Shown: positions 8,829 to 61,310, counted from the stretch's first letter. The stretch: 64,000 bases of DNA from an uncultured Candidatus Saccharibacteria bacterium (GCA_964496425.1 CAZBZO010000001.1:205744-269743), one strand, 5' to 3'. Program-made: numbers and translations. Notes: generated by a model not told the origin, from the letters alone.

Positions 8829-8881
8829 GTGCTTATATTATATGCCATTCAAGAAGAATTAAGAAGTGAGAATTTTGCTTT

Positions 8882-26816: not shown

Positions 26817-28613
26817 CTAAAAAAGCTTTTTGATAAACTTCCAAGCTTTTCCAGCTATACTTTCCTCTTTTCCGTTATGCGTATCTTCATCATCATACCC
26901 TTCCTCGGTGGTCATGTCTTCTTCTGGTATTCTACCGAATTCGTTAAGTGCTTCGTGATACTCTTTTTCTACTTCAAGAATTTTGGATTCCAGCTCTTCT
27001 ATTTTTTCATTTGGTATTTTTCCCTGACTCTCCAATTGCTTATACTCCTCATATATATTTTTTTGCAATTCTTTGGCCTTTTCGAGTGTCATTGTTTGAG
27101 CACTTCGAAGATCTAAATTATTTTCGATTATTTGGTTATCTGGTCCCACTAGACGAAATCGAGCTTTCGGGTCATCTATTATAATTACTCTTTCTTTATT
27201 TCGTATCTCATCTACATTCTCTACTTGTATTAGGAACCCGTTTAAAGTTAACTCATATGTACTATTTTTCCCTAACATCTTATAGTAACCCCATAAAGTA
27301 ATATCTTCATACTGTTGGTCTGTTTTGTTTTCATCGGCTAGACCGATTATTGATTGGACAACAGGATCAACCTTGTCCGCCGTAAACCACTTTAATGGAT
27401 TTGCTTTCCTGTCTTTAAGTTCGGTGATCGGATCTTCCAGTGTAGAAATTAACGGATTGAGAGTACGGCGAAACATTCTCAGCCACTCTTCATTTTGTGG
27501 ATCAGTCCCACTCGCTTCTTCAATTGCTATATCAATATTTTCTTTTTCTTTGAGGAGATTATTGTAAAATTGAATCTTATCTTGGGCCTCTGCGAATTCC
27601 AATTCAGGAATAGTATGGGTAGTATTTTGGTCCTCCATTGTTGGCTCTTGAGAAGGTATGGCAGTATTGCCTGGCGCCTGATTTTGCTGAAACGCGGCTA
27701 CTCTTTTTTTCATTGACTCATACGCTTCTATTTTTTTCTGTATATTTTCATATGCAAGTCTGCGCTTCTCTTCAGGATTTTCAGATACATCATTTTTATT
27801 TTGTTCAAAGTATTTAGTGATGTCGTTTAAAATATGATTACTCCGTGCAATCCAAGGATACAAAGCTTGCTTAGTAGCCTCATCACTATTCTCGATTTCA
27901 ACAATGCTATTTTTTATTTCATTCCCAATCTCCTTTAACGTTGCACTATCTTTGGAAACTATTGATCTGCTCACAATGCGATCAAAACGCTCAATGCGAT
28001 TTTGAATTTCATTTGCAGTATCTTTTGCTGCTTCTTTTTTGTTTTCCTTTCCTTCCCATGTATCAGCTCCTGTAAGCCCTGGCTCGACAGTCACTTCTGG
28101 CTTGGTGAGGTGGTTAATATTTTTTGTGTCGTTGAAATCTCTCGACAAATGTACATTGAGTGAGAGTAGGTCTTCAATGGGAATCAAATCTGACTTTTCA
28201 TGTTCTTCATCATTTCCATCTGCGTCCTTCTCTATAACTTTTTTGATTACTCGTACCAGTCCCCGATCTTTGTCAGCCTTGTCTTGCACTGTGTCCAATT
28301 CCCATTCTGTAGTGAGCTTTCTTTTTTCAATACTGTAGACTTTTCTGCCTGTCAGTAGGGGTAACTGTTTAACATTCTTTTGGAATTTTTTTAAATCTTT
28401 TTCTTTTTGAGCTTTTAATTTTTCTAGCGCCGCCTCTGCCTTCTCAAGCTCATTTTCGAGCGTAGCCAAAGTCGTGAGTTGTTCTGCGGTTAAGACACCT
28501 TCACTTCTAAACTTTTGAAGACTTGCGAGCTCTGTGACTGGATCAGGCGAAGAAACTCCAGTGCTGAGTTTATCAAAGAGTACTAGTGCGTTATCAGGAG
28601 TTTTTCCAGTCAT
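26817..28613 (-). CDS. Acidic coiled-coil orphan protein
   Basis: 598 aa, Glu/Lys-rich with heptad-like repeats. No catalytic motifs. Confidence 0.5.
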   Translation of the reverse strand: MTGKTPDNALVLFDKLSTGVSSPDPVTELASLQKFRSEGVLTAEQLTTLATLENELEKAEAALEKLKAQKEKDLKKFQKNVKQLPLLTGRKVYSIEKRKLTTEWELDTVQDKADKDRGLVRVIKKVIEKDADGNDEEHEKSDLIPIEDLLSLNVHLSRDFNDTKNINHLTKPEVTVEPGLTGADTWEGKENKKEAAKDTANEIQNRIERFDRIVSRSIVSKDSATLKEIGNEIKNSIVEIENSDEATKQALYPWIARSNHILNDITKYFEQNKNDVSENPEEKRRLAYENIQKKIEAYESMKKRVAAFQQNQAPGNTAIPSQEPTMEDQNTTHTIPELEFAEAQDKIQFYNNLLKEKENIDIAIEEASGTDPQNEEWLRMFRRTLNPLISTLEDPITELKDRKANPLKWFTADKVDPVVQSIIGLADENKTDQQYEDITLWGYYKMLGKNSTYELTLNGFLIQVENVDEIRNKERVIIIDDPKARFRLVGPDNQIIENNLDLRSAQTMTLEKAKELQKNIYEEYKQLESQGKIPNEKIEELESKILEVEKEYHEALNEFGRIPEEDMTTEEGYDDEDTHNGKEESIAGKAWKFIKKLF

Positions 28614-28723: not shown

Positions 28724-30985
28724 CTACTTTTTGCTAGGGTTATTTTTTTCTAGTTTCTCTTTAAATACTTTGATAAGTTCTCGCTTGATTTCTTCTGTTG
28801 TTTTGAGCTTAAAATAGAGATCCTGTTTGGTAGTATCTCCGACGAGGTCGTATTGGTGGTCCAAATCTGCTTGCGTAAAAAAATCTTTATCTTCAAGTGC
28901 CTTTTCGTAATCAGTGACATTTCCAATCTTTTTCTCTGGAATGTTCGTTTTTACTTCTGCTGATAATGCTGTGATCTTACCCCGTATATTTTTTAGGTTA
29001 CCTTCTGCTTTTCGGATTGCATCTGGATTTTTTAATTTAAGGAATCCCTCGGCGATCCGAGCTTTGAACTCCTCAAACTCATTTTGTTTATATTCTGCAA
29101 ACTTTTGTTCATCCACTGGTATTCCCATGGCGGTGAGTGTCCCTACTACGTCTACATCGTGTCCATTATTCTTTTCGTAGTCAGTTGCGATCATGTTGGA
29201 TCGAATAAGTTTGCTTGGTAGGACTTTGGAAAGTTCTTTTTCAACCTCTGCCAAATCCTTTTTTGATGAAGTGAATACGTTTTTCTGTCTAATGGCTATA
29301 TAAGTGTCATATCCTTTTGCATACGCTGCCGTCGCGCCAAGGGGGATCGTGTTGTTATTGTATTCAATAAAATTTATTAGAACTTTCCCTAATACCGGAT
29401 GGTCAAAAGTAATATCAAGCGCTTCCATTTTCTTTTCCGCTTTGGTAATACCTCTTCCTGAGTTGAACACCTTTTTTTGTTGATCGTTGCAGATTTCTCG
29501 AAGTGGCATCCCGCCCGTACGCTCGCGCGTAACAGGATCTTCTATGGTGTTTACAACAATAGCCAACTCATTTGAGGTGAAGGGTTTTCCAAAATCAATC
29601 TTGTCTTTCATAATGGTAAACCTGTTTGCGACTAAGCCCAGCATATCTTTAGCGGAAATACTTTTAGACACCCCATACGGGGTATGGGACCATTTTTTAT
29701 CAAAATTTTTTCGAATTTCTGAATCAAGATAGGATAAATTATCAATTCTATTGACGAGTGTAATATATTGCTCGAGGCCGTTTACAGGTAAGAGCTTTTC
29801 TCGATATTGCGGCATCTTCATGAGCATTCGATACATACCTTCTGTGGCTGAAGTGAAGCGGTCCTTGCGCTTTGGATCGTGGTGGTCGAAAGTCACGGTA
29901 CCATCAGGCTCAATAGTAGCCCCATCTTTCCCCGAAGTATCGAAGTTGACAACTCCGGCCGGTGGGTTGGTGTCATTTTCTTTCTGTGTTCTTTCGAGTT
30001 GCTCGGTACGGGTAAGCCTATCGCCTTTAGAGACAACCGTCAGACGATTGAGTTTTATGCCAGCTAGCTCACACAAAAGTTCAAGACCTTGTGCGTCAAG
30101 ATCTGGTCTTCCCCAGCCATCGCTTCCCACGAGCTCGCCATTTTCATCGAATACGTCATTTCCATGGATAACCCCTTCTATCCCACGTGGATCGCTGAAC
30201 AATTTTTCGAGTTCAGCAAGTTCTTTTTTTTCTGCGATAGTATTTTGATGATATTCAAACCGTCCTTCTTTTTCTGAAAATTTTTCCTGCAGCCTCTTTA
30301 TATCTTCCTCGTATCGAACTGCGAATGTTTTTTTGTAATAATCTAGGTTTTTTAATTTAGTATCGAGTAGGGCTATTTCAGTTTCATTTTTTTGTTTGGT
30401 AGCTGCATTGGATTCAGTTTCATTTTTCTTTACATAAAAGTCTCGAGCTGTTCGGTATTCGTGTCCCAAGTAGGCTATGGGGTCTGAAAAAAAATTTTGC
30501 ATAGCTTCCAAATCCTCAGACTCCAGTGGTACTGGCTTCCCTAGAGCAGTAAGAAATTTTTTCTCCATACCCTCGATACTTTTTTGTATTTCAAGTTGTA
30601 CTAAATTTTCTTCAAGCCCGGATAGGCGAGACCCAAGTATCTTTTTGGCAGGTGTTTTTTCAGACTTTAAATCTTTTTTCTTAGTATCATCATTCGGCGC
30701 TTTTCTCTCTCTCAGTTTAGTGATTGCTGCTGCACAGTCCCGTATGACTTTATTCATTGTGTCCTTTTCACTACCCGTAGCTGTCTTTCGACTTAGCTTA
30801 TTGTCGGCGATGATACTTTCAAGTTCTTGTATGGCTTGATCTCTGAGCGCCTCTACATCACCAGACTGTGGATCGATACTTAGAAAAAATTCATTGGCAA
30901 TTTCGGTCAGCGTTGCGCGAAGTACTGTCTCTTGTTCTTGAACAGAATTTAATAGTACGCCGGGATTTCTTGGTCCATTATTCAT
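28724..30985 (-). CDS. Orphan protein with a possible DHH-like motif
   Basis: 753 aa. It contains ...TVTFDHHDPKRKDR..., which is reminiscent of DHH phosphoesterase motif III. The assignment is weak. Confidence 0.45.
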   Translation of the reverse strand: MNNGPRNPGVLLNSVQEQETVLRATLTEIANEFFLSIDPQSGDVEALRDQAIQELESIIADNKLSRKTATGSEKDTMNKVIRDCAAAITKLRERKAPNDDTKKKDLKSEKTPAKKILGSRLSGLEENLVQLEIQKSIEGMEKKFLTALGKPVPLESEDLEAMQNFFSDPIAYLGHEYRTARDFYVKKNETESNAATKQKNETEIALLDTKLKNLDYYKKTFAVRYEEDIKRLQEKFSEKEGRFEYHQNTIAEKKELAELEKLFSDPRGIEGVIHGNDVFDENGELVGSDGWGRPDLDAQGLELLCELAGIKLNRLTVVSKGDRLTRTEQLERTQKENDTNPPAGVVNFDTSGKDGATIEPDGTVTFDHHDPKRKDRFTSATEGMYRMLMKMPQYREKLLPVNGLEQYITLVNRIDNLSYLDSEIRKNFDKKWSHTPYGVSKSISAKDMLGLVANRFTIMKDKIDFGKPFTSNELAIVVNTIEDPVTRERTGGMPLREICNDQQKKVFNSGRGITKAEKKMEALDITFDHPVLGKVLINFIEYNNNTIPLGATAAYAKGYDTYIAIRQKNVFTSSKKDLAEVEKELSKVLPSKLIRSNMIATDYEKNNGHDVDVVGTLTAMGIPVDEQKFAEYKQNEFEEFKARIAEGFLKLKNPDAIRKAEGNLKNIRGKITALSAEVKTNIPEKKIGNVTDYEKALEDKDFFTQADLDHQYDLVGDTTKQDLYFKLKTTEEIKRELIKVFKEKLEKNNPSKK

Positions 30986-42538: not shown

Positions 42539-43453
42539 ATGGCAAGCGAAATAGAAAAATATATCCGCGAATTTCTCGAATATATGGAGATCGAGCGCGG
42601 GGCGAGCCTGAAAACCGTGGCCAACTACGAGCGCTACCTGGCTCGCTTCTTTGCATTTACCAAAATCACTACACCAAAAAATATTACTGAAGATGCTGTG
42701 CGCGAATTTCGTCTTCATCTCAATCGCGCCCCTGGCGTGAAAGTCAAAGGTCAAAGCCAAGCGACGCTTAAAAAAAATACGCAAAATTATTATTTGATCG
42801 CGCTTCGGCGATATCTCAAGTACCTTATGAAGCGTGGGATTACATCGCTTCCACCCGACCGAATAGAACTTGCCAAAGTGGGCGCTCGGCATCTCGATCT
42901 TATGTCAGCAGTAGAGCTCACTCGCCTTCTCGACGCTGCGAAAGGTGATGAGCTTCGTTCTCTTCGTGACCGAGCGATTCTCGAACTTTTTTTCTCAACA
43001 GGCCTCCGTCTTTCAGAGCTCTGCTCGCTCAACCGTGATCTCGATACTAGCAAAGATGAATTCTCTATTCGTGGCAAAGGCGAAAAAGTTCGTGTCGTGT
43101 TTCTCTCCGACTCGGCTCGCGCCGCCATTAAAAAATATCTTGCTAAGCGCGCTGACGTAGAAGAGCCGCTTTTTATCCAAGGATCTAATAATAAGACTGA
43201 AGGCAGCCGCCTCACTCCCCGCTCGATCGAGCGGATCGTCAAACACTATGCCATCGTGGCCGGTATTTCCCGCAAAGTCACGCCGCATATCCTGCGTCAC
43301 TCGTTTGCTACTGATTTACTTTCTAACGGCGCTGACATTCGCTCGGTGCAAATGATGCTTGGCCATGCCAATATTGCTACTACTCAGGTATATACGCATG
43401 TCACCGACAAACAACTTCGCGAAGTGCACAAAAAATTCCACTCAAGTAAATAA
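42539..43453 (+). CDS. xerC: Tyrosine recombinase XerC/XerD
   Basis: 304 aa with an N-terminal SAM-like core-binding domain. The catalytic ...HILRHSFATDLLSNGADIRSVQMMLGHANIATTQVYTHV is present. Confidence 0.9.
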   Translation: MASEIEKYIREFLEYMEIERGASLKTVANYERYLARFFAFTKITTPKNITEDAVREFRLHLNRAPGVKVKGQSQATLKKNTQNYYLIALRRYLKYLMKRGITSLPPDRIELAKVGARHLDLMSAVELTRLLDAAKGDELRSLRDRAILELFFSTGLRLSELCSLNRDLDTSKDEFSIRGKGEKVRVVFLSDSARAAIKKYLAKRADVEEPLFIQGSNNKTEGSRLTPRSIERIVKHYAIVAGISRKVTPHILRHSFATDLLSNGADIRSVQMMLGHANIATTQVYTHVTDKQLREVHKKFHSSK

Positions 43454-48575: not shown

Positions 48576-48579
48576 GTTG

Positions 48580-48650
48580 TGCGGGTAGGGAGAATCGAAC
48601 TCCCGTCTCATCCTTGGCAAGGACGTGTTCTACCACTAAACCATACCCGC
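48580..48650 (-). tRNA. tRNA-Gly (anticodon GCC)
   Basis: The minus-strand sequence GCGGGTATGGTTTAGTGGTAGAACACGTCCTTGCCAAGGATGAGACGGGAGTTCGATTCTCCCTACCCGCA has a perfect 7-bp acceptor stem. The anticodon loop is TTGCCAA and the T-arm is GGGAG-TTCGATT-CTCCC. Confidence 0.9.
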
Positions 48651-48790
48651 AACATTATTTTTTAATATTAAAACGTGCTTATTATATTATTTCTAAGGCC
48701 AAATAGCAATTTCCAAACGAGTCTTATCCTACAAGGATATTATATGATTTTCAAATTTTAGTGTATAATTTTAAACGTTTTATAAAGTTT

Positions 48791-48862
48791 GCGCCCGTAG
48801 TTCAACGGATAGAACACTAGTCTTCGGAACTAGTGATGTGGGTTCGATTCCTGCCGGGCGCA
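48791..48862 (+). tRNA. tRNA-Arg (anticodon TCG)
   Basis: The sequence GCGCCCGTAGTTCAACGGATAGAACACTAGTCTTCGGAACTAGTGATGTGGGTTCGATTCCTGCCGGGCGCA has the acceptor GCGCCCG/CGGGCGC. The anticodon stem-loop is CTAGT-CTTCGGA-ACTAG. An extended -10 TGTATAAT lies about 25 nt upstream. Confidence 0.9.
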
Positions 48863-48897
48863 CAAACAAAAAAAGACCTGCAAGGGTTTTTTTTGTT

Positions 48898-50092: not shown

Positions 50093-50440
50093 TTAATTTT
50101 CTGGCAGTTCCAGCCAATCGCTTGGTGAAACATCGAGCGTTATTTCGCTCTGGTTAGGCAGTGTGACAAAAATTTGTCCACTACCATCAGAAAACACACG
50201 AAACTGCTCATCGGGAATCTCTTTAACATTTGAGATCCTGCCCTTAAGTCGTTCCGCTTCATTTTTTGCGAGCTTAAGCCAGGCATAAAAAATTTTCATG
50301 CTTAGTCTCACATGTTCGAGTTGTAAAACTTTTACAATTTGCTTTTCCACTGTATATGGCCCTCCGCGGCCGTTTTTAAATGAACAAATTTGAACTCTCT
50401 TGAATCCGCCACAATGTGATGAACTCAACAGAGCTGGCAA
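50093..50440 (-). CDS. Hypothetical protein downstream of the Ubl-conjugation operon
   Basis: 115 aa ORF with no motifs. Confidence 0.35.
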   Translation of the reverse strand: MPALLSSSHCGGFKRVQICSFKNGRGGPYTVEKQIVKVLQLEHVRLSMKIFYAWLKLAKNEAERLKGRISNVKEIPDEQFRVFSDGSGQIFVTLPNQSEITLDVSPSDWLELPEN

Positions 50441-50778: not shown

Positions 50779-51438
50779 TTATTTAAAAATAAAGAGCAAG
50801 CGCTTTTTATCACGCGATACTCCAATTTTTATTACATCATTCTCGAGCACCTTTAGGTACCCGCCCTGCCCGTTATCTTCGGTTTCAGTTCCAGGCTTAG
50901 GTTCCGGTATTGGTGCAGGTGCCGGTGGTTCCGGTTTCCTGTTGATGAGAATTTCATCCCCGTTTTCAAGAACGGTGTTGAGATTTCCCTCTTTACCATC
51001 TACAGTGATGATTTCCTTTTCGGCATCAAATCGGATGCCAGCGATCTGCAAAGCATTGGCTACTGTTCCGTCGCCGGGTTGGGCTTCAGGTTCAGAAGCA
51101 TGCAACAATGCCACAGTGTGGCGTTCACCAGGCACGTGGGCGATGGTCACCAAAAATTGGTTGCCCTTAATCTTGGGTACCAACAAAATAATGTCGCCGT
51201 CGGATACAGGTGTGTCCCAGAGCACCAATGTGATTTTCTCCCCTTCCCGGACCGCGAGTTCGCGGCCGTTCAAAAAAGGAACATCAATCATTTCCTTTCC
51301 ATTAGACCCGTATGGGTCTTTTGAGAAAGTGAAATTGCAAACACTGGCAGCAGTTTGCATCGCTGTTAACACCGTTGCAGGTGTATTAATAACAATTTGT
51401 TTTACGGTGCCAGGCACCTTACCACAAGTTAAATTCAT
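50779..51438 (-). CDS. Tandem beta-grasp (ubiquitin-like) protein with an internal Gly-Gly followed by a C-terminal extension
   Basis: 219 aa. There are two ThiS/MoaD-like repeats that end ...VSDGDIILLVPKIKG and ...LENGDEILINRKPE. A Pro/Ala linker is followed by ...TEDNGQGG at residues 193-196, then a 23-aa tail. It is the last gene of the E2-JAB-E1 operon. Confidence 0.5.
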   Translation of the reverse strand: MNLTCGKVPGTVKQIVINTPATVLTAMQTAASVCNFTFSKDPYGSNGKEMIDVPFLNGRELAVREGEKITLVLWDTPVSDGDIILLVPKIKGNQFLVTIAHVPGERHTVALLHASEPEAQPGDGTVANALQIAGIRFDAEKEIITVDGKEGNLNTVLENGDEILINRKPEPPAPAPIPEPKPGTETEDNGQGGYLKVLENDVIKIGVSRDKKRLLFIFK

Positions 51439-51486
51439 TTTTGACAGTTTTGATTGTGAAAAAAAATTGTGAAAAAATTATTTTGC

Positions 51487-52209
51487 TTATTTCCACCCAT
51501 GAGCCGTAGCCACAATGGGTCTGATGCAGAGCATTTCGCTGCTCGCGTGCTGATCACGTTCCTGTAGTTTTACAACAGGTTTGAAATCAACATTGGAAGC
51601 GAACTTCACCAGTTTGTGACTGGCAAGTCCTGCGATCGTGCTCACTACCGTACTTATGGCACGATAGGTGCAGGGAGACTCTTCAGCCTCACTGTCACCA
51701 TAGAGCGTGCCTTCGTATTCACGGACATCGGTCGGGTCGAGCGGCCGCACTGTGTAAATCGTGCCGAGCTCTGCCCCAAGGCGGGTCTCTACAACCAGAC
51801 TGACATCAAGTTGGTATTTAAGGCTGTTAAGCCAAATCTTCTTTCTTGATGACATGGTATCAGTACAAATGTACACGATACCTTCTAGCTTTTGTGATCC
51901 GTCTACCTTTTCGTTGCGAGCGACAACTTCGACGCCGCAATCACGAGAAAGGATTTTTTTGAGAGCTTCGACTTTGGAAAGCCCCACTTCCTCCAAACCG
52001 TAAATCTGGTTTGGAAGGTTGTGAATTTCCACACTGTCGAAGTCCCATGCGGTGATGTTGCTAACCCCCATCTTCGCTAAGATGAAGGCGATCCAGCTTC
52101 CCGTCGCACCGACGCCGATGATGTGCACCGGCGTGGTGAACTGGGCTGGATCAAACATGTCGAGCTGGCGCCAATAATCCGGCGTCAGTAATCCAGATGC
52201 TGGTCCCAT
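51487..52209 (-). CDS. E1-like ThiF/MoeB-family adenylyltransferase
   Basis: 240 aa with the Rossmann motif VHIIGVGATGSWIAFILAKMGVSNITAWDFDSVEIHNLPNQ and IVYICTDTMSSRKKIW. These match MoeB VLIVGLGGLG...LDFDVV..SNLQRQ and the CTDN region. Confidence 0.8.
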   Translation of the reverse strand: MGPASGLLTPDYWRQLDMFDPAQFTTPVHIIGVGATGSWIAFILAKMGVSNITAWDFDSVEIHNLPNQIYGLEEVGLSKVEALKKILSRDCGVEVVARNEKVDGSQKLEGIVYICTDTMSSRKKIWLNSLKYQLDVSLVVETRLGAELGTIYTVRPLDPTDVREYEGTLYGDSEAEESPCTYRAISTVVSTIAGLASHKLVKFASNVDFKPVVKLQERDQHASSEMLCIRPIVATAHGWK

Positions 52210-52871
52210 GTTTTTTGGTTTTTGGGCCAGTTTTTTTCATGGCCGAAGCCGTGAAGTTGAACTGGCTGGTGAACAATTTTTTTGACTTTCTGCTTGACTT
52301 GGTCGCGGATATCCGCTTCCCGAGTATCGTCATGGGGAAGAATTATTTCCCACGAGACGTCGTTGAAACGTAATCCACGTGCAAAGTCATAAAAAGTAAA
52401 CTCTGCCCTGCCGTGGCGGCCGAAAATCCCGCGGATGAACCAGTCGTTACCGTTGGACAATACGTCCATCTGGATTTCGTCCTGACCCGACGGGGATGTG
52501 CTGTTGCTCGGGTGCACGTGGCCCCAAAACTTCAGCGCGTTTACCTTTTCAATTGCTCCGTTCACCAGGAGCTCGGTTGCCACCTTAGCAATATCCGCAG
52601 GTGACATTGCGGTTTCGGCCACTTCCACTTCCTGCTCGAAGAGCATTACTTCTTCGATGGTGTAGACAGAGCTTATTTTTGAAACAGTTCCCAGCCAGGA
52701 GATTTCCTCCCGACCAGAAGCAGCGGCGATGTAGTACATATCCAGGTACGCCGCCAGGCTGACCTTGATATGGGGTACTGCATAATTGAGCAGTACCGTT
52801 TGGGTTTGAAAGTTATGCGGTCGGAACTTGTCCGCCGCATTTACTTTCGTGAAATTATTGAGATATTCCAC
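52185..52871 (-). CDS. JAB/MPN+ (JAMM) metallopeptidase
   Basis: 228 aa. The JAMM motif is exact: E in GREEISWLG, then FWGHVHPSNSTSPSGQD, which fits H-x-H-x7-S-x2-D. Confidence 0.8.
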   Translation of the reverse strand: MEYLNNFTKVNAADKFRPHNFQTQTVLLNYAVPHIKVSLAAYLDMYYIAAASGREEISWLGTVSKISSVYTIEEVMLFEQEVEVAETAMSPADIAKVATELLVNGAIEKVNALKFWGHVHPSNSTSPSGQDEIQMDVLSNGNDWFIRGIFGRHGRAEFTFYDFARGLRFNDVSWEIILPHDDTREADIRDQVKQKVKKIVHQPVQLHGFGHEKNWPKNQKTWDQHLDY

Positions 52872-52918
52872 TGTGTCCGCCCTCCCAGGCAGTTTTTGAT
52901 TTTTGAACTATTTATTTT

Positions 52919-54100
52919 TTACCACTTCAAGTCGTCTTGCGACGGACCTTCTGTAGTTTGAGTTTGTAGTAACTCATCCGCCTTCGGCCACCAGTAAATT
53001 CCCTTACCAGCACTGTCGTCGACATTCACGCTTTTTAGGAACTGAATGGCCAAAATGGCTACTACCGAGTATTGGTACTCTGCGATCAGCTGTGGTAGAG
53101 CCGTCGAGATGTTGCCGAGACAAGCGTCGCCACTTGCCTGTACGTGTGGGTGATGATGGTTGTAGGAGGTGTTACCCTCGAAACCACTTGGTCGGGTGTG
53201 GCCAGGACCTTTACCTTGGTTGGTCAAGTTAAAAAACTTGATACCACCGTTGATAAAAATCTCGATCCGAAATTCACCAATCATATATTTCACCTTGTCA
53301 TGAGTGATATATATCATATCGGTGAAAACTTTAATCACTCCATCCCCAGCCTCGATTTTTTTCACATCCTGTATCGTCAGGAATTTTTCAAATTCCTTTC
53401 TGTAGCCTTCTTCCGCATCGGGCCGCGCTTTTTCAAGCTGCACGAGCTTTTGCTCAGCACCTTTAGTCTCGCGTACCTTGGTCACCAACTCGTCCTGCAA
53501 TTTTTTTATGGCTGTAAAACCCTCATCAATTGCTTTTTTTGTACCTGCCAGCATCTTGTCAAAGCGCTGTGAACAGGCTTTGACGAATGCCTCGCGGCTT
53601 CGGTTCCTCACTTCTTCAGCGCGCTTTTGTTCACGCGCTAATTTTTCTGCAGGGTCTTTTATTTCTATTTCTTTTACCACCTCCTGCAATAGATGGCGAA
53701 AAATTTTGTCGTCTGTATCCTTTCCATGGTGGTATACATCATGGTGAATATATAAGACACTCTCGCCGATAAGCTCGGCAACTGAATATTCTCCGTCGTA
53801 AAAGCTTTTTCCTTCCCCGGAGGGAGAAAAAGCTTCGTCACGGCAATTGACATCGTACCCCCAAATTTTTTGAGGGGGATTGATGTTTTTCCCCCCCCGT
53901 GGCGAACTCCAGATAAAAATCTGGAAATTCATTGTTTCTTTTTTTGATGCCGCACTACCATGTGGCATGGAAACTTCTAACCCTTTTCCATTTAGAGTTA
54001 GAGTGGGGAGGAGAATCTCCTCTACTGCTTTTTGGGCAAGGAGAAGTCCAGCGTCTTGCCATGAAAGGAATTTCACCTCTCCAATGTTTGCGTTGCTCAT
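52919..54100 (-). CDS. Protein with a coiled-coil N-terminal half and a C-terminal E2 (UBC-fold)-like domain
   Basis: 393 aa. The C-terminal ...SYNHHHPHVQASGDACLGNISTALPQ aligns with the UBC active site HPNV-x-x-x-G-x-ICLDIL, placing the catalytic Cys in GDACLGN. Confidence 0.55.
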   Translation of the reverse strand: MSNANIGEVKFLSWQDAGLLLAQKAVEEILLPTLTLNGKGLEVSMPHGSAASKKETMNFQIFIWSSPRGGKNINPPQKIWGYDVNCRDEAFSPSGEGKSFYDGEYSVAELIGESVLYIHHDVYHHGKDTDDKIFRHLLQEVVKEIEIKDPAEKLAREQKRAEEVRNRSREAFVKACSQRFDKMLAGTKKAIDEGFTAIKKLQDELVTKVRETKGAEQKLVQLEKARPDAEEGYRKEFEKFLTIQDVKKIEAGDGVIKVFTDMIYITHDKVKYMIGEFRIEIFINGGIKFFNLTNQGKGPGHTRPSGFEGNTSYNHHHPHVQASGDACLGNISTALPQLIAEYQYSVVAILAIQFLKSVNVDDSAGKGIYWWPKADELLQTQTTEGPSQDDLKW

Positions 54101-55132
54101 TTTACAAAAGTTTTATACCCCTGCAGCATCAATCGGCCTTGGGGCGGTGAAAAAATTTGTTTTTGCTCAGCGTCTGATTGACGTAGACATTTTCTGTGAC
54201 CGACGGGCCACAGATCAATCTGAGCTTCGTCGGTCCGCACATGTCGGATGTCAATCTTGCACCGTTAGCACACGGTACAACATGTCTAAGTTTGTAACCC
54301 GGCTCCCCGCTCTGAAGATCAATCGCCCCAGTCGGACCAGGTTACTCCCTTCCATACAACAGTTTGTAAGTCTCTCTATGCACTGTCTGGTACGCGTAGA
54401 GATTACTTGTCGACTTCTCTTTTAACGTCGGCCGACAGACGACGTTACGTGCCTGGTGGAATACCACCTAAGCCTGATTTGTTTTTCATGGTGTCCTCTT
54501 TTTTGGTGAAAGCGAATGCCGATCATTCAGCATCCAGTTTCACCAAAAGAGACTAGCCACGTGCTCAAGCCACCCAATATCTGTTTCGCACATTTTGTGC
54601 AACAATATTTGTGTTAAGCTATTTAATTTTTTACCCCAATCGATCCATGAAACTATTTCGTGAACCGAAGAAGGGTGACAACATTTCGTTGTCACATGAT
54701 TAACCCGATTAACCATTGACCCCTTTGTAGCTGTTCTGCCGTATTTCAGACGAGGTTGCTGTCCTCTGTCGTTGTGGTGGCTATTGTGTATCCGTACACA
54801 AACTTCACCTTTTATCCTCACGCAACGTCGTGAGCTTTTTGCGAAAGATCAGAAGCGAGTTCTGATCAAGACAAAACCGCTTTTCAGCGCTTTTGTATGA
54901 CCAGATCTCTTCTTTCCCTGCTCCTTTTTTACAGGAGCAATTTTCTCCACCACCTGACGTGGCTTCGAAAATTGGGAAAGATCGATCTTTCCAAGGACTG
55001 TCACGCCCGGAAGCGTGGCAGTCCTGTGACTCATCATTTCCATATTTTTTGGAAATTTAAAGTCAAAACTATTCCCCGCTTCTCGCACGGTGGATATCAC
55101 GCCAAGTTTGTGTCATTGGGGACAGGGGAATT

Positions 55133-55558
55133 TCACATAAGAAATTTTTTCCCAGCAAACCGCAGATATTCTGCGAATGTTTTGGGATGAATTTTTTTAA
55201 GATCCCTCAACGGGATCTGCCAAAGTAAATCTTCCACATGGGGGCTATTTTCCCCATATGGCCTGACAAGGGTTTCCCACTTTGCCCCCGGATATCGGGA
55301 TAATAAGTATCCCGATTTCATAGAGCGCCCGAGGTATATTTGAAAAAATATCCCCCCTCCCGTATTAAAGTGGAGGGTAAGGGTAACTTGTGAGATTTTA
55401 CTTCCCACAACGGTAATCCCGTTGTGGATTTTTTGTTTTTCCTGCAGAAGGAGGATCTCCTCCTCTGCTGAGAGTGCGGGGACAATGTCCTCGCACTCTT
55501 GCTTGATCCGTTCAATTTCATTTTGAAATTGAAGGAAAATAAATTTCGCTGTTCTCAT
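55133..55558 (-). CDS. Hypothetical small protein (doubtful)
   Basis: 141 aa ORF in an otherwise gene-poor, compositionally atypical stretch. No motifs. Confidence 0.25.
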   Translation of the reverse strand: MRTAKFIFLQFQNEIERIKQECEDIVPALSAEEEILLLQEKQKIHNGITVVGSKISQVTLTLHFNTGGGIFFQIYLGRSMKSGYLLSRYPGAKWETLVRPYGENSPHVEDLLWQIPLRDLKKIHPKTFAEYLRFAGKKFLM

Positions 55559-56627
55559 TTTTTTTGATTTTAGGTTAAGAAATACTCGAATACCGAATAC
55601 CGAATCACTTCAGTCGCCGAGTATTTCTTAACCGAGTGGAAAATGAAATCCTTCAATAATATTCAGGATAAAAAACCACTCTATTCACCTCACCAATTGC
55701 CTGATGGGGCTTATGTGGGGAGCATACAACTGGCCCGAGGCAAAACCTCGAGAGTACCCGAGGAATTGCCTCGAGATGCCCCGCACAATATTTTATTTTC
55801 AACGATCACCATCTTGCCCGATCCCGATCTCCCGATCTAGATCAGCTCTCAGTATTTATATCCGCAAATTTTCATTTATAGATATCTCTACTGAATTCCT
55901 TCGCAAGAAGGAGTACGGAGGTAAAGTAATGCCTAACTCTCTCCTCCATACTTCTTGTTACGAATCTCTCCCTTGCCTCGCCGTAGCTTGTTTAGATATT
56001 TGTGGGCTCGCCTCGCCATAGCTTTAGCGAAGGCGGGTCACGCTCCTTATAACGAAATACGGTAGCGTAGTCTTTTTCAACTCTCCCCTCAGAGAATTTC
56101 ACAAAGACATTTCTGGAAACGAAAGTGGGTTAATCTTTCGCATCCAGTCGATCTCTTTGCGAGCCCCTCACTAAATTTTAAAATTTAGTGAGGGGCGAGA
56201 ACGGTGTGCACGTGATCTGTAGTGAGACTCGGGTTTGCGGCCTATGCCTTACTACAACGTGCGGTGCAAACGGAAGCAGGGAAGACTGTTTTTGTGGATA
56301 TACGCTCTTTGCAAACGGCGATTTTTGGCTCCCCTGACCATTCACGTATATCGCAATCTTCCTACTATCCCCTCAAAGAACTCTCTCCGTCTTTGGCCTT
56401 GCGACCTCTTTGACTTTCTTGCTAATAGTATAGCATCTTTAAACTGTTTTGTCAACAATACAGATCAATTATATTTAAAATTGTTATTTTTCTCAATAAA
56501 ATAAGGCTAGAATAGTTATGCACATTGTCATATTTGCGTGACAAAACACAATAATGTAGAATTCTAGGGTGAATCAGTTGCTGTATTAAAAATCTAAAAT
56601 CCCTGCCTGCGCAGGCAGATAGAATCT

Positions 56628-57380
56628 ATGCAAAGTGAAAACATCCTAATCCAAGCCGGACTCTCAGAAGAACAAGCCCTCGTTTACGAGGCTTTGCTTG
56701 AAAAGGGTCCGCAAAAAGCCTCGCCGCTATCGAGCTGGACGGGGATAAAGCGCTCTTTGATCTATAAGATTTTGGAACAGCTGGAAACTATGGGGCTGGT
56801 GGAGAAAAAAGGGGGACCGGGGACAGTGGCAGTATTTTCGCCACTTCATCCTTCACTTCTCATGCACGACCTGGAGCGCAAAGAAAAGGAGCTGGCGCTC
56901 GCAAAAGATATGCTCACGCACTCCTTGGGCACGCTTTCATCGAAATACAATCTGATTGCCGGAAAACCCAATGTGCAGTTTTATGAGGGGAAGGAAGCGA
57001 TCGCACAAGTGACCAATGAATTTCCAAAAAATGAAAAAGAAATTCGCCAGTTTATAAATATCGGACGAGCTATGGAACAATTTCCAGATGAAACTGTTGG
57101 CCATCTCCATCAGCGTATAAAGGCCGGTATCTCTAAAAGAATGATCGTGCCGGATACTGAGCCTAATCGTGCATATGTGAAAAAGGGAAGTGAGCTCACT
57201 GAATTTAGATTTATTAAAAATGTGCTTCCGACCGCTGTCCAAATATATGATGATAAAGTGAGTATGCTGACCCTTACTCCTGAAAAAGTAGTCGGGCTGG
57301 TGATCGAGGACAGTGCTATTTCAGAAACGTTTAAAATGCTCTTCGACGAGTATTGGGAGCGTGTAGCAAAACCGCTGTAA
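56628..57380 (+). CDS. TrmB-family transcriptional regulator
   Basis: 250 aa with an N-terminal winged HTH MQSENILIQAGLSEEQALVYEALLEKGPQKASPLSSWTGIKRSLIYKILEQLETMGLVEKK. A 16-bp perfect palindrome CTGCCTGCGCAGGCAG lies at 56603-56618, just upstream. Confidence 0.75.
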   Translation: MQSENILIQAGLSEEQALVYEALLEKGPQKASPLSSWTGIKRSLIYKILEQLETMGLVEKKGGPGTVAVFSPLHPSLLMHDLERKEKELALAKDMLTHSLGTLSSKYNLIAGKPNVQFYEGKEAIAQVTNEFPKNEKEIRQFINIGRAMEQFPDETVGHLHQRIKAGISKRMIVPDTEPNRAYVKKGSELTEFRFIKNVLPTAVQIYDDKVSMLTLTPEKVVGLVIEDSAISETFKMLFDEYWERVAKPL

Positions 57381-57382
57381 AA

Positions 57383-59575
57383 TTAGGCTGCTTGTTGCAG
57401 TCGATCTTTTTGCCATTTAGTGATTTTAATAACTTCTACACCAAGTGGAGTATAGTCAGAATTTGTTCCAATCTCCTCAAACCCGAATGATTCTCTGTAT
57501 GTGTCGCGCATCGGGTTTTGGGCGTATACGTCGGCTTCGAAGTCACCTTCGCTTGTATATTCTTCGATTACTTTGCGTAAAAGTTCGGTGCCGACACGCG
57601 AACCTTTGATGAGTGGATTTACGTTGAACGATGCTCCGTAAAAGGATCCGTCCGCGCGGCGCAGAACGCGCATAGATGCAATAACTTCGCCTTTGAGCTT
57701 GACGGTATCGATGACTTCATTTTCCTTTGGATTTTCGAGCGCGTCTTTTTGAGTACCAAGCCACTTTTCTCGGAGAGCTTCGGGGTATTGTTTTGTATTT
57801 TCTATCGCCATAGCAATGATCTCATTTTTATTCTGCTCTGACATCAGGGAAGCATTTTCGTGAGAAAGCTCGATATCCTTAAAATCTTCGAACGAGAATG
57901 TCTTTTGTTCTACAAGTGATTTACAAGCAGCCGCGAAGACAATAGTGGAAGTTTTGATGTCAGCCATTTTTTGCTCCAATTCCTTTCCAAGCGCGATACA
58001 ATCTTCTCCGGTGCATTTTTGTGCCGGTGCAGCATATATTTCAAGTAATTTTTTTCCGCGTAGTAGCAGATGCTCTTTTGTTTTATCAATGAGTTCCGGC
58101 GTCATTTTCGCAGACAGATTTTCTTGCATGTATGTTTCGACTGAGCTCACTTCGTCAATAATTTCCCCATACTTTTTAAAAAGTATTTCCGCGGATTCTG
58201 TCGGAAGCTTTTCTCCAAGGGTGAGGATCTTGTCGCCCATTGATTCATCACCGGACATTGAGAGGAATGATTTGAGGTAATTTTGGTTAATCTCCTGTTT
58301 GTTACCCTTAAGCTGACCTTCTAATTTTGTGAATGTCGCTTCATCTGATTCTGACAAAAATCGTAAAAATTGTATCTGCTCACGTAGGTACAAGTCCTCA
58401 AGATGTATACCTAGTCTTTTGTTGACGTAGTCTCTGATTTCTGGACTATGAAGGACTTTTATTAAATGCGAAAAATCTTCTTTTCCTAATGGATTGAAGA
58501 TTTTGTTTTCAGTGAGACCCTCGTAGCTTTGCAACTCGATGCTTCTTTTTGATGTATTTTTTATTTCTGTAGTCTCCACCAGTGCATATGGAGTGTAGGT
58601 TGCTCTCGAAATGATACTTCCATATTCTTTTGAAACTTTGGAATATAAGATGTTTTCCAAATCAGGAACGATTGAATTTGAATTAAAAAATTCCGTGCTC
58701 TCTTTTGTTACCTTTTCTCTAATCATACTGATTTCATTATTAACGGGGTATGGTTTGTCATCATCCTCGGAATCTGGGGTAGAATAGACACCTCCATCAA
58801 ACTCGCTCACAATTCCAGTATTATTCTCTATTTTTTTCAATTCGAAATCTGAAATAAACTTGACGAGTGGACTCTTTTCATTTTTACGAAGTTCTAGTAG
58901 AAGTTTAACAACTGCTTTATATGCTGGTTCTGCCCACTCTCCATTCCCATGTGCCCACAATGCAGTAGTGGAAAGCTGCTTAATTGCGCTAATTTTGCTC
59001 GAACTACTCAGATTTTTTACATTTTCCTTAAATTTTTCTATACGCTCCCCATTTGCCCACGAAAGATCAAGGGTGAGTTCTCCTTGAGTACTGACAATAT
59101 TTCTTAGACCGTACGTTTCATTTATTTTTGAAAATGCAATGAGTTGGTAGATACGGTCAGTTTTTAAATATTCTAGCGCGTCGGGCGAACGACCGAAATA
59201 CAAATTATTAAGGTTTTCGTAAAAACTTTGCGCCTTGTTTTTTTCGTAATCCTTTTTGAAAATGAGCTTATTGCAAAACTCAATGAGTTCGTCAGCGAAG
59301 ATTTTTACCAATCCTGTTTGTTCCTTAGATATATATTGGGTTTCGTTCGGGAATAATTTTTCAACCATTTCATGCATCGGGTCATTGAAAAAGCCTCTGG
59401 ATGTATCGGAATTATTACTCCATAGTTCCTGTATGTGCGTTTTAACCCACGCACTAAAAAATTTCTTCTTTTCTTGAGGTGTCATTTCTAGATTTTCAGA
59501 TGGTTTTGAAATACTAGGTTCACCGACAGGAGATGGCTGATCTGCAAATTTCATACCTCGATTGTACACCCCCAC
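57383..59575 (-). CDS. Large hypothetical protein with a C-terminal GNAT acetyltransferase domain
   Basis: 730 aa. The C-terminus has ...FNVNPLIKGSRVGTELLRKVIEEY...YAQNPMRDTYRESFGFEEIG, matching the GNAT motif A and beta-strand pattern. It is convergent with the TrmB gene, with only 2 bp of spacing. Confidence 0.55.
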   Translation of the reverse strand: MGVYNRGMKFADQPSPVGEPSISKPSENLEMTPQEKKKFFSAWVKTHIQELWSNNSDTSRGFFNDPMHEMVEKLFPNETQYISKEQTGLVKIFADELIEFCNKLIFKKDYEKNKAQSFYENLNNLYFGRSPDALEYLKTDRIYQLIAFSKINETYGLRNIVSTQGELTLDLSWANGERIEKFKENVKNLSSSSKISAIKQLSTTALWAHGNGEWAEPAYKAVVKLLLELRKNEKSPLVKFISDFELKKIENNTGIVSEFDGGVYSTPDSEDDDKPYPVNNEISMIREKVTKESTEFFNSNSIVPDLENILYSKVSKEYGSIISRATYTPYALVETTEIKNTSKRSIELQSYEGLTENKIFNPLGKEDFSHLIKVLHSPEIRDYVNKRLGIHLEDLYLREQIQFLRFLSESDEATFTKLEGQLKGNKQEINQNYLKSFLSMSGDESMGDKILTLGEKLPTESAEILFKKYGEIIDEVSSVETYMQENLSAKMTPELIDKTKEHLLLRGKKLLEIYAAPAQKCTGEDCIALGKELEQKMADIKTSTIVFAAACKSLVEQKTFSFEDFKDIELSHENASLMSEQNKNEIIAMAIENTKQYPEALREKWLGTQKDALENPKENEVIDTVKLKGEVIASMRVLRRADGSFYGASFNVNPLIKGSRVGTELLRKVIEEYTSEGDFEADVYAQNPMRDTYRESFGFEEIGTNSDYTPLGVEVIKITKWQKDRLQQAA

Positions 59576-60753: not shown

Positions 60754-60958
60754 TCGGTAGCCCTAAAGGATTGCGATTTTAACAATCCAAGTACGGATTA
60801 AAAAATCGGTAGCCCTAAAGGATTGCGATTTCTACAGTTTCTTTTGAAACTAAGAAATCGGGAATATCTCGGTAGTATGCATGTTTTGGGGATATTTTTC
60901 ATTGTTAATTTAACATCTAGGTCGGGGCGTAGTATATCGGTAGTATGCATGTTTTGGG
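60754..60958. repeat. Two pairs of direct repeats sharing a TCGGTAG core (tRNA-fragment-like)
   Basis: TCGGTAGCCCTAAAGGATTGCGATTT occurs at 60754-60779 and 60806-60831. TCGGTAGTATGCATGTTTTGGG occurs at 60869-60890 and 60937-60958. The second copy lies inside the tRNA-Pro-like element. Confidence 0.6.
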
Positions 60959-60993
60959 AACATGAGGGCCGAGTTCGATTCTCGGCGCCCCGA
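60923..60993 (+). pseudogene. tRNA-like element with a Pro (TGG) anticodon arm and no regular D-stem (probable tRNA pseudogene or remnant)
   Basis: The acceptor is CGGGGCG/CGCCCCG, extendable to a 13-bp pairing CTAGGTCGGGGCG/CGCCCCGACCTAG. The anticodon arm is CATGT-TTTGGGA-ACATG. The T-arm is CCGAG-TTCGATT-CTCGG. The D-arm region AGTATATCGGTAGTAT is a direct repeat rather than a helix. Confidence 0.4.
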
Positions 60994-61089
60994 CCTAGGT
61001 GTGAAAAGAAAAATATCCGGATGTTTGGGGGAACATCCGCGGAAATTTCGAGAAGAAATTTATGAGGGCCGAGTTTGCCCCTACTCCTT

Positions 61090-61160
61090 GCGGGATTAGT
61101 TAAATGGTATAACTCTAGTTTTCCAAACTAGTGTCGGGGGTTCGATTCCCCCATCCCGCA
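61090..61160 (+). tRNA. tRNA-Gly (anticodon TCC)
   Basis: The sequence GCGGGATTAGTTAAATGGTATAACTCTAGTTTTCCAAACTAGTGTCGGGGGTTCGATTCCCCCATCCCGCA has the acceptor GCGGGAT/ATCCCGC. The anticodon arm is CTAGT-TTTCCAA-ACTAG. The T-arm is GGGGG-TTCGATT-CCCCC. Confidence 0.9.
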
Positions 61161-61310
61161 CATAAAACACTTAGCCCGGATGCATAGCATTCGGGTTTTA
61201 GTGTTTTACTGCGGTATGGGAATCGAAAGACGGAGGCCGCGAAGCCGTCCGAAGGACGTGGTCGAGTCGGGGTCGAGAAATTTTTATGAAATAAAAAATA
61301 TTCGTAACCT

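What the first reader, a model, noticed from the sequence alone, without database searches (positions are those of the whole stretch)
50779..54100. Complete E2-JAB-E1-Ubl operon: a Bil/Bub-like ubiquitin-like conjugation system
Four co-directional, tightly packed minus-strand genes are present. The E1/JAB pair even overlaps.
- (1) A 393-aa protein whose C-terminus carries HPHVQASGDACLGNI, a close match to the UBC E2 active site HPNV..G.ICLDIL.
- (2) A JAMM/MPN+ peptidase with a textbook E...HxHx7Sx2D motif.
- (3) A ThiF/MoeB E1-like adenylyltransferase with GxGxxG and the CTD(N) motif.
- (4) A tandem beta-grasp protein with an internal ...NGQGG followed by a 23-aa tail. This looks like a pro-Ubl needing JAB processing.
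This gene order matches the bacterial E2/JAB/E1/Ubl operons proposed as ubiquitin-like conjugation systems, some of which were later shown to act in anti-phage defence (Bil/Bub type). The di-Ubl with a long Pro/Ala linker before the GG, and the E2 fused to a long coiled-coil N-terminal half, are unusual. The operon sits in an accessory-looking region next to a gene-poor 2.5-kb stretch.
Basis: partly seen in the sequence, partly recalled or inferred. Interest (0 to 1): 0.85.

Follow-up and report, generated by a model that had tools for sequence, protein, structure and literature searches.

The report
Uncharted bacterial ubiquitin-like tagging operon

Summary
The four minus-strand genes are real and form a conserved module. 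The order E2-like, JAB, E1, Ubl recurs in about 70 loci from metagenomes and MAGs, mostly candidate-phyla-radiation (CPR) bacteria.

- **JAB.** The E…HxHx7Sx2D motif is intact in 48 of 50 relatives.
- **E1.** It is a minimal 240-aa ThiF domain with a loop cysteine present in all relatives checked.
- **Ubl.** It has two beta-grasp domains.
- **Processing site.** The conserved site is …PKIKG92-N93, at the end of the first beta-grasp. Single-domain relatives stop exactly at GN.
- **Classification.** This is not a Bil or Bub member. The E1 architecture, the lack of gene fusions, the absence of DUF6527 and the failure of the HMMs all argue against it. It works like those systems.
- **Family size.** At least 1,373 clusters at 50% identity, none annotated.
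- **Role.** An anti-phage function is untested and the genomic context does not support it.

Verdict: a new variant of a known kind of system.

The parts
52919..54100 (-). E2-like protein, 393 aa. It has an N-terminal alpha/beta domain (residues 1-146; 53663-54100), one long helix that is probably a coiled coil (150-240; 53381-53653), and a C-terminal UBC-fold domain (241-393; 52922-53380).
53108..53152 (-). E2 active-site motif HPHVQASGDACLGNI (residues 317-331), with the putative catalytic Cys327.
   Evidence: P318, H319, G324, C327, L328 and G329 are each conserved in at least 90% of 38 homologues. The motif has the same spacing as the HPNINSNGSICLDIL of UBE2D2 and aligns to it. The UBE2D2 sequence was checked against the PDB.
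52185..52871 (-). JAB/JAMM (MPN+) metallopeptidase, 228 aa. The motif is E56, H118, H120, S128, D131 (52479-52520 and 52689-52709).
   Evidence: These residues are invariant in 16 relatives. The motif is intact in 48 of 50 distinct relatives. The only PDB profile hits are JAMM proteins: an Rpn11-like protein at E 0.016 and BRCC36. PADLOC JAB models score 0.009.
51487..52209 (-). Minimal E1, a 240-aa single ThiF/MoeB adenylation domain. It carries GVGATGS (52096-52116), the Asp/Asn motif (52006-52044), TDTMSSR (51844-51867) and loop Cys180 within EESPCTYR (51661-51684).
   Evidence: Pfam ThiF 2e-20. NCBIfam ThiF models. PDB hits to TcdA, ThiF, UBA5, MoeB and MccB. The loop Cys is invariant in 17 aligned relatives and present in all 42 checked.
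51160..51438 (-). Ubl proper: the first beta-grasp domain (residues 1-93), ending PKIKG92-N93 (51160-51177). This is the conserved processing and activation site.
   Evidence: Profile hits to MoaD (7e-5), SAMP2 and ThiS. G92 is invariant across 16 domains and the G-N pair across nine close homologues. About 38 of 45 distinct Ubls carry the G-N motif, and many stop exactly there.
50782..51159 (-). C-terminal extension of the Ubl gene product. It comprises a second beta-grasp (94-170), a Pro/Ala-rich linker containing the non-conserved NGQGG (171-196), and a conserved beta-strand tail (197-219).
   Evidence: hhalign gives 95.7% probability for domain 2 against the Ubl profile. NGQGG is absent from homologues, whereas the tail 'YFTVFKSGxFKIRVARDxxRILIIL' is conserved among close relatives. 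Other lineages carry quite different extensions of 0-238 aa.
54101..54260 (-). Upstream region of the operon. This is the only part of the 2.5-kb gap that is conserved in related loci, so it is a probable promoter or 5' leader.
   Evidence: blastn gives 73-78% identity over 122-161 nt to L007 and L008, directly upstream of their E2 genes. No consensus promoter was found.
56628..57380 (+). TrmB-family HTH regulator, transcribed divergently from the operon. It is a recurrent neighbour and a possible regulator.
   Evidence: Pfam TrmB 9e-14. Homologues lie next to the operon in 10 loci.

Best explanation
The operon encodes a self-contained ubiquitin-like protein-conjugation cascade. It belongs to a previously unannotated family.

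**Proposed steps**
1. The 219-aa gene product is a precursor. Its first beta-grasp domain (residues 1-93) is the modifier.
2. The JAB metalloprotease frees the modifier from the 126-residue C-terminal extension by cutting at the conserved G92-N93 site. It probably also removes the modifier from its targets.
3. The 240-aa ThiF-type E1, presumably a homodimer like ThiF and MoeB, adenylates the new C-terminus. It probably then holds the modifier as a thioester on loop Cys180.
4. The modifier passes to Cys327 of the UBC-fold domain of the 393-aa protein and from there to a target amine.
5. No E3 is encoded. The E2's own N-terminal domain, held on a long helix that probably dimerises, is the likely target selector. 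It is swapped or multiplied between close relatives.

**Shown here**
- The folds and family assignments of all four proteins.
- Conservation of every catalytic residue.
- The conserved gene order.
- The position of the conserved G-N site.

**Inferred**
- The order of the chemical steps.
- Dimerisation of the E1 and the E2.
- The role of the N-terminal domain.
- The nature of the targets.

**Unresolved**
- Whether the mature modifier ends in Gly92 (with Asn93 trimmed off) or in Asn93.
- The biological role. A conflict or defence role, or a stress-control role, is a guess at roughly one in three.
For: **E2 fold and active site**
- hhalign aligns C327 to Cys85 of UBE2D2.
- The motif is at least 90% conserved in 38 homologues.

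**JAB**
- Motif invariant in 16 relatives and intact in 48 of 50.

**E1**
- Pfam ThiF hit above threshold.
- Invariant loop cysteine.

**Ubl**
- The profile hits MoaD, SAMP2 and ThiS.
- The second domain is also a beta-grasp.

**Gene order**
- Conserved across roughly 70 loci with otherwise unrelated neighbours.

**G-N site**
- Conserved at the domain end in about 38 of 45 Ubls.
- Extensions beyond it range from 0 to 238 aa.

**Precedents**
- In Type II Bil a JAB trims the residues that follow a conserved Gly (PMC10557695).
- In Bub a JAB cuts a Ubl fusion (PMC11601596).

**N-terminal domain as selector**
- It is swapped in P0005, P0006 and P0022.
- It is repeated five times in P0082.
Against: - No biochemical data exist for any member of the family.
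- The catalytic Asn of the canonical HPN motif is replaced by an invariant His.
- The E1 has Asn where ThiF and MoeB have the Arg of NLxRQ.
- A C-terminal Asn is unusual for an E1 substrate.
- The fold of the E2 N-terminal domain is unresolved.
Confidence: 0.75

Rival explanations
1. This is a Bil/Bub-type anti-phage system whose di-Ubl is matured by JAB cleavage after the internal GQGG (residue 193), so that both beta-grasp domains together form the modifier, as in ISG15.
For: GQGG is present at residues 190-193. Type I Bil Ubls do have two beta-grasp domains (PMC11601603). One relative, L001, has two beta-grasp domains with the conserved site at the very end.
Against: GQGG is missing from all eight closest homologues. 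In those homologues and in nine other lineages the conserved G-N lies after the first beta-grasp domain. PADLOC models find nothing for the E2-like or Ubl protein and only marginal JAB hits. The E1 architecture and the lack of fusions differ from Bil and Bub. No defence genes lie nearby.
Confidence: 0.04
2. Asn-dependent chemistry. The mature modifier ends in Asn93. The ThiF-type E1 activates it as MccB activates the C-terminal Asn of the microcin C precursor. This would proceed through an acyl-adenylate that can cyclise to a succinimide. The product or linkage would then differ from a standard Gly-Lys isopeptide.
For: - N93 is almost as conserved as G92, and more than 20 Ubls stop exactly after it.
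- In the profile alignment G92 falls on the penultimate Gly of MoaD and SAMP2, so N93 occupies the position of their last Gly.
- One relative ends GG* in the same register as GN (L042).
- Operons with no JAB, or with an inactive one, have Ubls that end exactly at this position, as GA* (L060 and L020).
- ThiF-type enzymes are known to activate a C-terminal Asn (PMC12250964).
Against: - The last position is not always Asn. It is G, A or Q in five lineages, so Asn side-chain chemistry cannot be essential to the family.
- MccB needs an N-terminal peptide-clamp domain, which this E1 lacks.
- The conserved cysteines in the E1 and the E2 point to a thioester relay.
- JAMM enzymes normally cut after Gly.
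Confidence: 0.12
3. Sulfur-carrier or cofactor pathway. The beta-grasp protein, the ThiF-like E1 and the JAB form a thiocarboxylate sulfur-transfer system like CysO/MoeZ/Mec+ or QbsE/QbsC/QbsD. The 393-aa protein would be an accessory factor rather than a conjugating enzyme.
For: The closest sequence relatives of the Ubl and the E1 are MoaD/ThiS and ThiF/MoeB. JAB-containing sulfur-carrier operons are known (PMC1779556).
Against: - No rhodanese, cysteine synthase, ThiG or MoaE gene lies in or next to any of the loci.
- The Ubl lacks the GG end.
- A UBC-fold protein with a conserved Cys is present in every locus.
- The large, variable C-terminal extensions on the Ubl do not fit a cofactor pathway.
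Confidence: 0.04

Closest known systems
Type II BilABCD (bacterial ISG15-like) operons
   Same: Four separate genes encode a Ubl, an E2, a JAB/JAMM peptidase and an E1. No E3 is encoded. The Ubl carries a conserved Gly followed by extra residues that the JAB removes. The E2 is thought to select its targets itself and to dimerise (PMC10557695).
   Different: [quoted passage not shown] The E1 here is a 240-aa single domain with a loop cysteine.
- PADLOC finds no match for the E2-like or Ubl protein and only marginal JAB matches.
- Here the residue after the Gly (Asn) is itself conserved, and the extension can be a whole extra domain.
- The E2 carries an N-terminal domain and a 90-residue helix.
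- The hosts are mostly CPR bacteria.
Bub (6E/DUF6527) operons
   Same: Both are E1/E2/Ubl conjugation machineries. In both, a JAB releases the Ubl from a C-terminal fusion partner. The Ubls have a variable number of beta-grasp domains (PMC11601596 and PMC11601603).
   Different: - Bub is built from fusions (Ubl-E2 plus JAB-E1, or E2-E1) and always has the DUF6527 serine protease.
- Bub uses Ser and Tyr oxyester intermediates and has no catalytic cysteines.
- Here all four genes are separate, no DUF6527 gene is seen, and the cysteines of both the E1 and the E2 are conserved.
Class 6d operons of Iyer, Burroughs and Aravind 2006 (Ubl + JAB + E1-like + E2-like on mobile elements)
   Same: The same four stand-alone components (PMC1779556).
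   Different: - 6d operons have an extra conserved alpha-helical protein.
- Their E2-like protein lacks the His of the HPN region.
- Their JAB has its own N-terminal domain.
- Here the E2 keeps an HPH motif with eukaryote-like spacing, and none of the Pfam Prok-E2, Prok-JAB or Prok_Ub models match.
Canonical eukaryotic E2 enzymes (UBC family, for example UBE2D2 and UBE2S)
   Same: The UBC fold. The active-site motif has identical spacing: H-P-x-[VI]-x3-G-x2-C-L.
   Different: - Asn of HPN is replaced by an invariant His.
- There are six beta strands rather than four, and a 25-residue insert precedes the motif.
- The protein is not recognised by Pfam UQ_con.
- It is fused to a coiled coil and an N-terminal domain.
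MccB/MccA (microcin C) and other ThiF-like adenylyltransferases
   Same: A ThiF-fold enzyme acts on a substrate whose last residue is a conserved Asn (PMC12250964). MccB is among the PDB hits of the E1.
   Different: The substrate here is a folded 70-93-aa beta-grasp protein, not a short peptide. The E1 has no peptide-clamp domain. There are no exporter or immunity genes. An E2 and a JAB are present.

Membership tests
UBC/E2 superfamily | UBC fold: an alpha1 helix, a beta meander, the active-site loop and C-terminal helices. | tested here: met
UBC/E2 superfamily | A catalytic Cys about 8 residues after an HPN-like motif. | tested here: met
   hhalign aligns HPHVQASGDAC327L to the HPNINSNGSIC85L of UBE2D2 at 84.9% probability. 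The Cys is at least 90% conserved. The Asn of HPN is His here.
UBC/E2 superfamily | Recognition by the curated sequence models (Pfam UQ_con, Prok-E2_A to Prok-E2_E). | tested here: not met
   No Pfam hit at E <= 1. None in 10 further family members. None in NCBIfam or PADLOC.
JAMM/MPN+ (JAB) metallopeptidases | The E ... HxHx7Sx2D metal-binding and catalytic motif. | tested here: met
   E56, H118, H120, S128 and D131 are invariant in 16 relatives. The motif is intact in 48 of 50. Profile hits are weak: Rpn11-like at 0.016 and PADLOC JAB at 0.009. There is no Pfam hit.
ThiF/MoeB/E1 adenylyltransferases | A Rossmann-type adenylation domain with a Gly-rich loop and Asp motifs, scoring above the Pfam threshold. 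| tested here: met
   PF00899 at 73.3 bits against a cut-off of 28.1. The motifs are conserved. The Arg of NLxRQ is Asn here.
Beta-grasp Ubl (ThiS/MoaD/SAMP-like) | A beta-grasp domain related to ThiS/MoaD. | tested here: met
   Family profile against the PDB: MoaD 7e-5, SAMP2 2e-3, ThiS 8e-3. Six of 16 members hit Pfam ThiS weakly. The structural test was weak because the model is poor.
Beta-grasp Ubl (ThiS/MoaD/SAMP-like) | A C-terminal Gly-Gly. | tested here: not met
   The conserved end is Gly-Asn in about 38 of 45 members. GG occurs in only two lineages.
BilABCD (Type I/II) | An operon of separate Ubl, E2, JAB and E1 genes. | tested here: met
BilABCD (Type I/II) | An E1 with IAD-AAD-CYS architecture (PMC10557695, PMC11601596). 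| tested here: not met
   The E1 is 240 aa with a single adenylation domain and no inserted CYS domain.
BilABCD (Type I/II) | Sequence membership: defence-system HMMs, or solved Bil chains. | tested here: not met
   PADLOC gives no hit for the E2-like or Ubl protein, only marginal JAB hits, and for the E1 only the adenylation half of CBASS E1-E2 models. The Bil chains in the PDB are not among the sequence hits of the E1, E2 or Ubl profiles.
BilABCD (Type I/II) | Protection against phage through Ubl conjugation to phage proteins. | not testable with these tools
   No known defence genes lie within about 10 kb.
Bub (6E/DUF6527) | Ubl-E2 and JAB-E1 fusions, or an E2-E1 fusion. | tested here: not met
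   Four separate ORFs here and in the related loci.
Bub (6E/DUF6527) | A DUF6527 (PF20137) serine protease, BubE. | tested here: not met
   No such Pfam hit among the operon genes or the flanking ORFs that were scanned.
Bub (6E/DUF6527) | An E2 and an E1 that lack catalytic Cys (oxyester chemistry). | tested here: not met
   E2 C327 and E1 C180 are conserved.
Microcin C-type (MccA/MccB) | An invariant C-terminal Asn on the substrate, and an MccB with an N-terminal peptide-clamp (RRE) domain. | tested here: not met
   Asn is dominant but not invariant. The E1 has no N-terminal domain of about 90 aa. There are no exporter or immunity genes.

The most novel reading that the evidence does not exclude
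The reactive C-terminal residue of this modifier is asparagine rather than glycine. A minimal ThiF-type E1 would then activate a protein-borne C-terminal Asn. That would link ubiquitin-like conjugation to the Asn-adenylate and succinimide chemistry so far known only from microcin C-type peptide biosynthesis. It would occur in a large family of operons spread through CPR bacteria.
Probability: 0.3. Interest if true: 0.85.

Novelty: new variant of a known kind. Interest (0 to 1): 0.7.

Why it matters
Bacterial ubiquitin-like conjugation is a young field, with Type II CBASS, Bil and Bub all characterised since 2022. Each new family has changed ideas about how ubiquitination chemistry arose.

- **An overlooked family.** This family has at least 1,373 clusters at 50% identity and carries no annotation. 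Pfam, NCBIfam and PADLOC give no match above marginal for its E2, JAB or Ubl. It sits mainly in CPR bacteria, whose biology is poorly known.
- **Evolutionary relevance.** It pairs the simplest possible E1 with an E2 whose active-site motif has the eukaryotic spacing. That bears on how the E1-E2 relay evolved from ThiF/ThiS-type systems.
- **Testable anomalies.** The conserved Gly-Asn end, and the precursors that carry whole extra domains, can both be tested directly.
- **Target selection.** The swappable N-terminal domain on the E2 offers a way to study how targets are chosen without an E3.

Tried and rejected
- **Sequence searches with the 393-aa protein.** HMM scans against Pfam, NCBIfam, PADLOC and PHROGs, and phmmer against the PDB, gave nothing.
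- **Full-length family profile against the PDB.** It returned only coiled-coil noise.
- **Foldseek against the PDB.** Nothing significant.
- **Foldseek against afdb50.** The library was not available.
- **tblastn of the E2 against INPHARED phages.** No match.
- **Phage origin.** IMG/VR holds one distant relative. A phage origin for the window itself was rejected because it carries PNPase, UvrD, the CCA-adding enzyme, tRNAs and type IV secretion genes.
- **Promoter and terminator scan.** Nothing above chance.
- **Rfam scan of the 2.5-kb gap.** Nothing apart from tRNAs elsewhere in the window.
- **Literature searches.** No paper on a CPR, Patescibacteria or Saccharibacteria ubiquitin-like system was found. 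The library does not include most subscription-journal papers.
- **Phage tail-assembly Ubl/JAB reading.** Rejected, because there are no tail genes.


Full report
**1. The observation**

The four minus-strand ORFs exist as described:

| ORF | Coordinates | Length |
|---|---|---|
| E2-like | 52919-54100 | 393 aa |
| JAB | 52185-52871 | 228 aa, GTG start |
| E1 | 51487-52209 | 240 aa |
| Ubl | 50779-51438 | 219 aa |

- JAB and E1 overlap by 25 nt. The other two spacers are 47 and 48 nt.
- No minus-strand terminator-like site lies inside the cluster.
- The quoted motifs are all present.
- One detail is off: NGQGG is at residues 189-193 and is followed by 26 residues, not 23.
- The operon GC content is 47.3%, against 42.5% for the window. 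Upstream lies 2.5 kb without a long ORF.

**2. The E2-like protein**

- It has no hit in Pfam, NCBIfam, PADLOC, PHROGs or PDB sequences.
- It has 72 unannotated homologues in the indexed protein database.
- A profile search of 1.84 billion cluster representatives finds 1,373 at E <= 1e-30 and 3,052 at E <= 1e-10. Ten of these were checked and have no Pfam domain on this region.
- The alignment shows a near-invariant xPH[VI]xxxGxxCLGN block, an invariant Asn291, and a second conserved region in the N-terminal 146 residues.

An AlphaFold model built on this alignment is confident (pLDDT 90.8). It shows three parts:

- an alpha/beta N-terminal domain;
- one helix spanning residues 150-240;
- a C-terminal domain with a beta meander followed by helices.

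**3. JAB and E1**

- *JAB.* In 16 aligned relatives, E56, H118, H120, S128 and D131 are invariant. The motif is intact in 48 of 50 distinct sequences. The family profile hits only JAMM proteins in the PDB, and weakly.
- *JAB start codon.* The conserved N-terminus supports the 228-aa GTG start over the 184-aa call found in public data.
- *E1.* It passes the Pfam ThiF threshold. It is a single adenylation domain.
- *E1 cysteine.* The cysteine in the AExSxC loop (C180 here) is invariant in the 17 aligned relatives and present in all 42 distinct E1s checked. In the alignment it falls on a cysteine of E. coli ThiF.

**4. The Ubl and its processing site**

- The eight closest homologues, 42-64% identical, lack GQGG. 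All of them carry LLVPKI[KR]G-N-QF at the end of the first beta-grasp domain.
- Operons found through the E2 show the same pattern. About 38 of 45 distinct Ubls carry [KR]-[IV]-[KR]-G-N at the domain end.
- More than 20 stop exactly there.
- A few have one or two extra residues.
- The rest continue for 10-238 residues, with a second beta-grasp, coiled coils or other tails.
- The exceptions at the last two positions are GG, GA, GQ and AN.

A profile of this domain hits MoaD (7e-5), SAMP2 and ThiS. Residues 94-170 of the window protein are a second beta-grasp at 95.7% probability. 'Tandem beta-grasp' is therefore correct. The modifier, though, is the first domain. The second domain, the Pro/Ala linker and the tail together form a C-terminal extension.

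**5. Gly92 or Asn93?**

For trimming to Gly92:
- JAMM enzymes cut after Gly.
- In Ensifer aridi, BilC removes the single Ala that follows the conserved Gly of BilA (PMC10557695).

For Asn93 as the true end:
- Asn is nearly as conserved as Gly, and conservation stops right after it.
- G92 aligns with the penultimate Gly of MoaD and SAMP2.
- One relative ends GG in the same register.
- The one lineage without a JAB (L060/61), and the one with a JAB lacking HxH (L020), both have Ubls that end exactly at this position.
- ThiF-type enzymes can activate a C-terminal Asn, as MccB does (PMC12250964).

I cannot decide between these two with the available tools.

**6. Context and distribution**

- The window is a bacterial chromosome, not a phage. 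It carries PNPase, UvrD, the CCA-adding enzyme, a YraN-family protein (UPF0102), four tRNAs, and SLT plus a VirB4/TraG-like ATPase.
- The related MAGs are mostly labelled Saccharibacteria, Moranbacteria, Buchananbacteria or Paceibacterota. A few bins carry other labels, which I did not verify.
- Outside the four genes the neighbourhoods differ. This is typical of a self-contained module.
- One association does recur. A divergently transcribed TrmB-family regulator and a large protein with a C-terminal GNAT domain appear in 10-11 loci. This may reflect shared ancestry of those genomes rather than shared function.
- No PADLOC defence protein lies nearby.

**7. The E2's N-terminal domain**

- In the close relatives P0005 and P0006, and also in P0022, the coiled coil and UBC half are retained while the N-terminal domain is unrelated. 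In P0005 and P0006 that half is 73-75% identical to the window protein.
- P0082 carries five tandem copies of the domain.
- Nine loci have two E2 paralogues side by side.
- No E3 is encoded. This modularity suggests that the N-terminal domain selects the target. That is an inference.

**8. Comparison with known systems**

- The system works like Type II Bil. It has separate Ubl, E2, JAB and E1 genes, no E3, and a JAB that pre-processes the Ubl.
- It fails the defining Bil features of E1 architecture and sequence membership.
- It fails every defining Bub feature.
- It also differs from class 6d of Iyer et al. 2006.
- I found no paper that describes it. The searched library is incomplete, so it may be described in a subscription-journal paper.

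**9. Verdict**

This is a real, complete ubiquitin-like conjugation operon. It is a new variant of a known kind. Three features are unusual: the Gly-Asn end, the precursors that carry extra domains, and the E2 with a swappable N-terminal domain on a long helix. The proposed cleavage site and the Bil/Bub label are not.

Noticed in passing
window 54101-56627: A 2.5-kb stretch with no ORF longer than 141 aa and no Rfam match. Two pieces are conserved in related loci: the last 130-160 nt before the E2 start, and a 35-46-nt piece about 85 nt into the gap from the TrmB gene start. The rest is unique to this genome. Relatives have a 1.2-1.9-kb gap here that holds small variable ORFs.
   Followed up: partly
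window 56628-57380 (+) and 57383-59575 (-): A TrmB-family HTH regulator and a 730-aa protein with a C-terminal GNAT acetyltransferase domain. Homologues of both recur beside the operon in 10-11 related loci. Whether this reflects function or only synteny is unknown.
   Followed up: partly
window 50093-50440 (-): A small ORF just downstream of the Ubl gene. It has homologues next to the operon in L007 and L018, lying upstream of the E2 gene in L018. No family hit.
   Followed up: no
P0005, P0006, P0022, P0082 (homologues of window 52919-54100): The E2's N-terminal domain is replaced by an unrelated domain in close relatives. P0082, a 1,072-aa protein, carries five tandem copies of it. Nine loci have two E2 paralogues in tandem.
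   Followed up: partly
L020 1201-5050 (IMG/VR UViG of 187,794 bp; same contig as L071): A distant version of the operon. Its JAB-position protein has lost the HxH motif. It has a head-to-tail di-Ubl in which each unit ends IKGA, and a second E2 + JAB pair a few kb away. A 366-aa ORF next door looks like a TnpB-type transposase by eye; I did not scan it against any family library. Whether the contig is truly viral was not checked.
   Followed up: partly
L060 / L061 4707-6903: A variant with E2, E1 and Ubl but no JAB within 5 kb. Its Ubl ends ...AVRGA.
   Followed up: yes
window 52185-52871: Public gene calls include a 184-aa version of the JAB. The conserved N-terminal region (KFxPHxF...) supports the 228-aa ORF with the GTG start.
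   Followed up: yes
window 12834-15860, 16028-18805, 23579-26788, 26817-28613, 28724-30985: Five large minus-strand ORFs (598-1,069 aa) with no Pfam domain at E <= 1e-5. They lie downstream of an SLT transglycosylase and a VirB4/TraG-like ATPase (5653-10735), so they may belong to a type IV secretion or surface apparatus.
   Followed up: no
window 48579-48863 and 60923-61161: Two pairs of tRNA genes (Gly-GCC with Arg-TCG, and Pro-TGG with Gly-TCC) flank the region that holds the operon. A tyrosine recombinase lies at 42539-43453. No repeat or integration scar was looked for.
   Followed up: no
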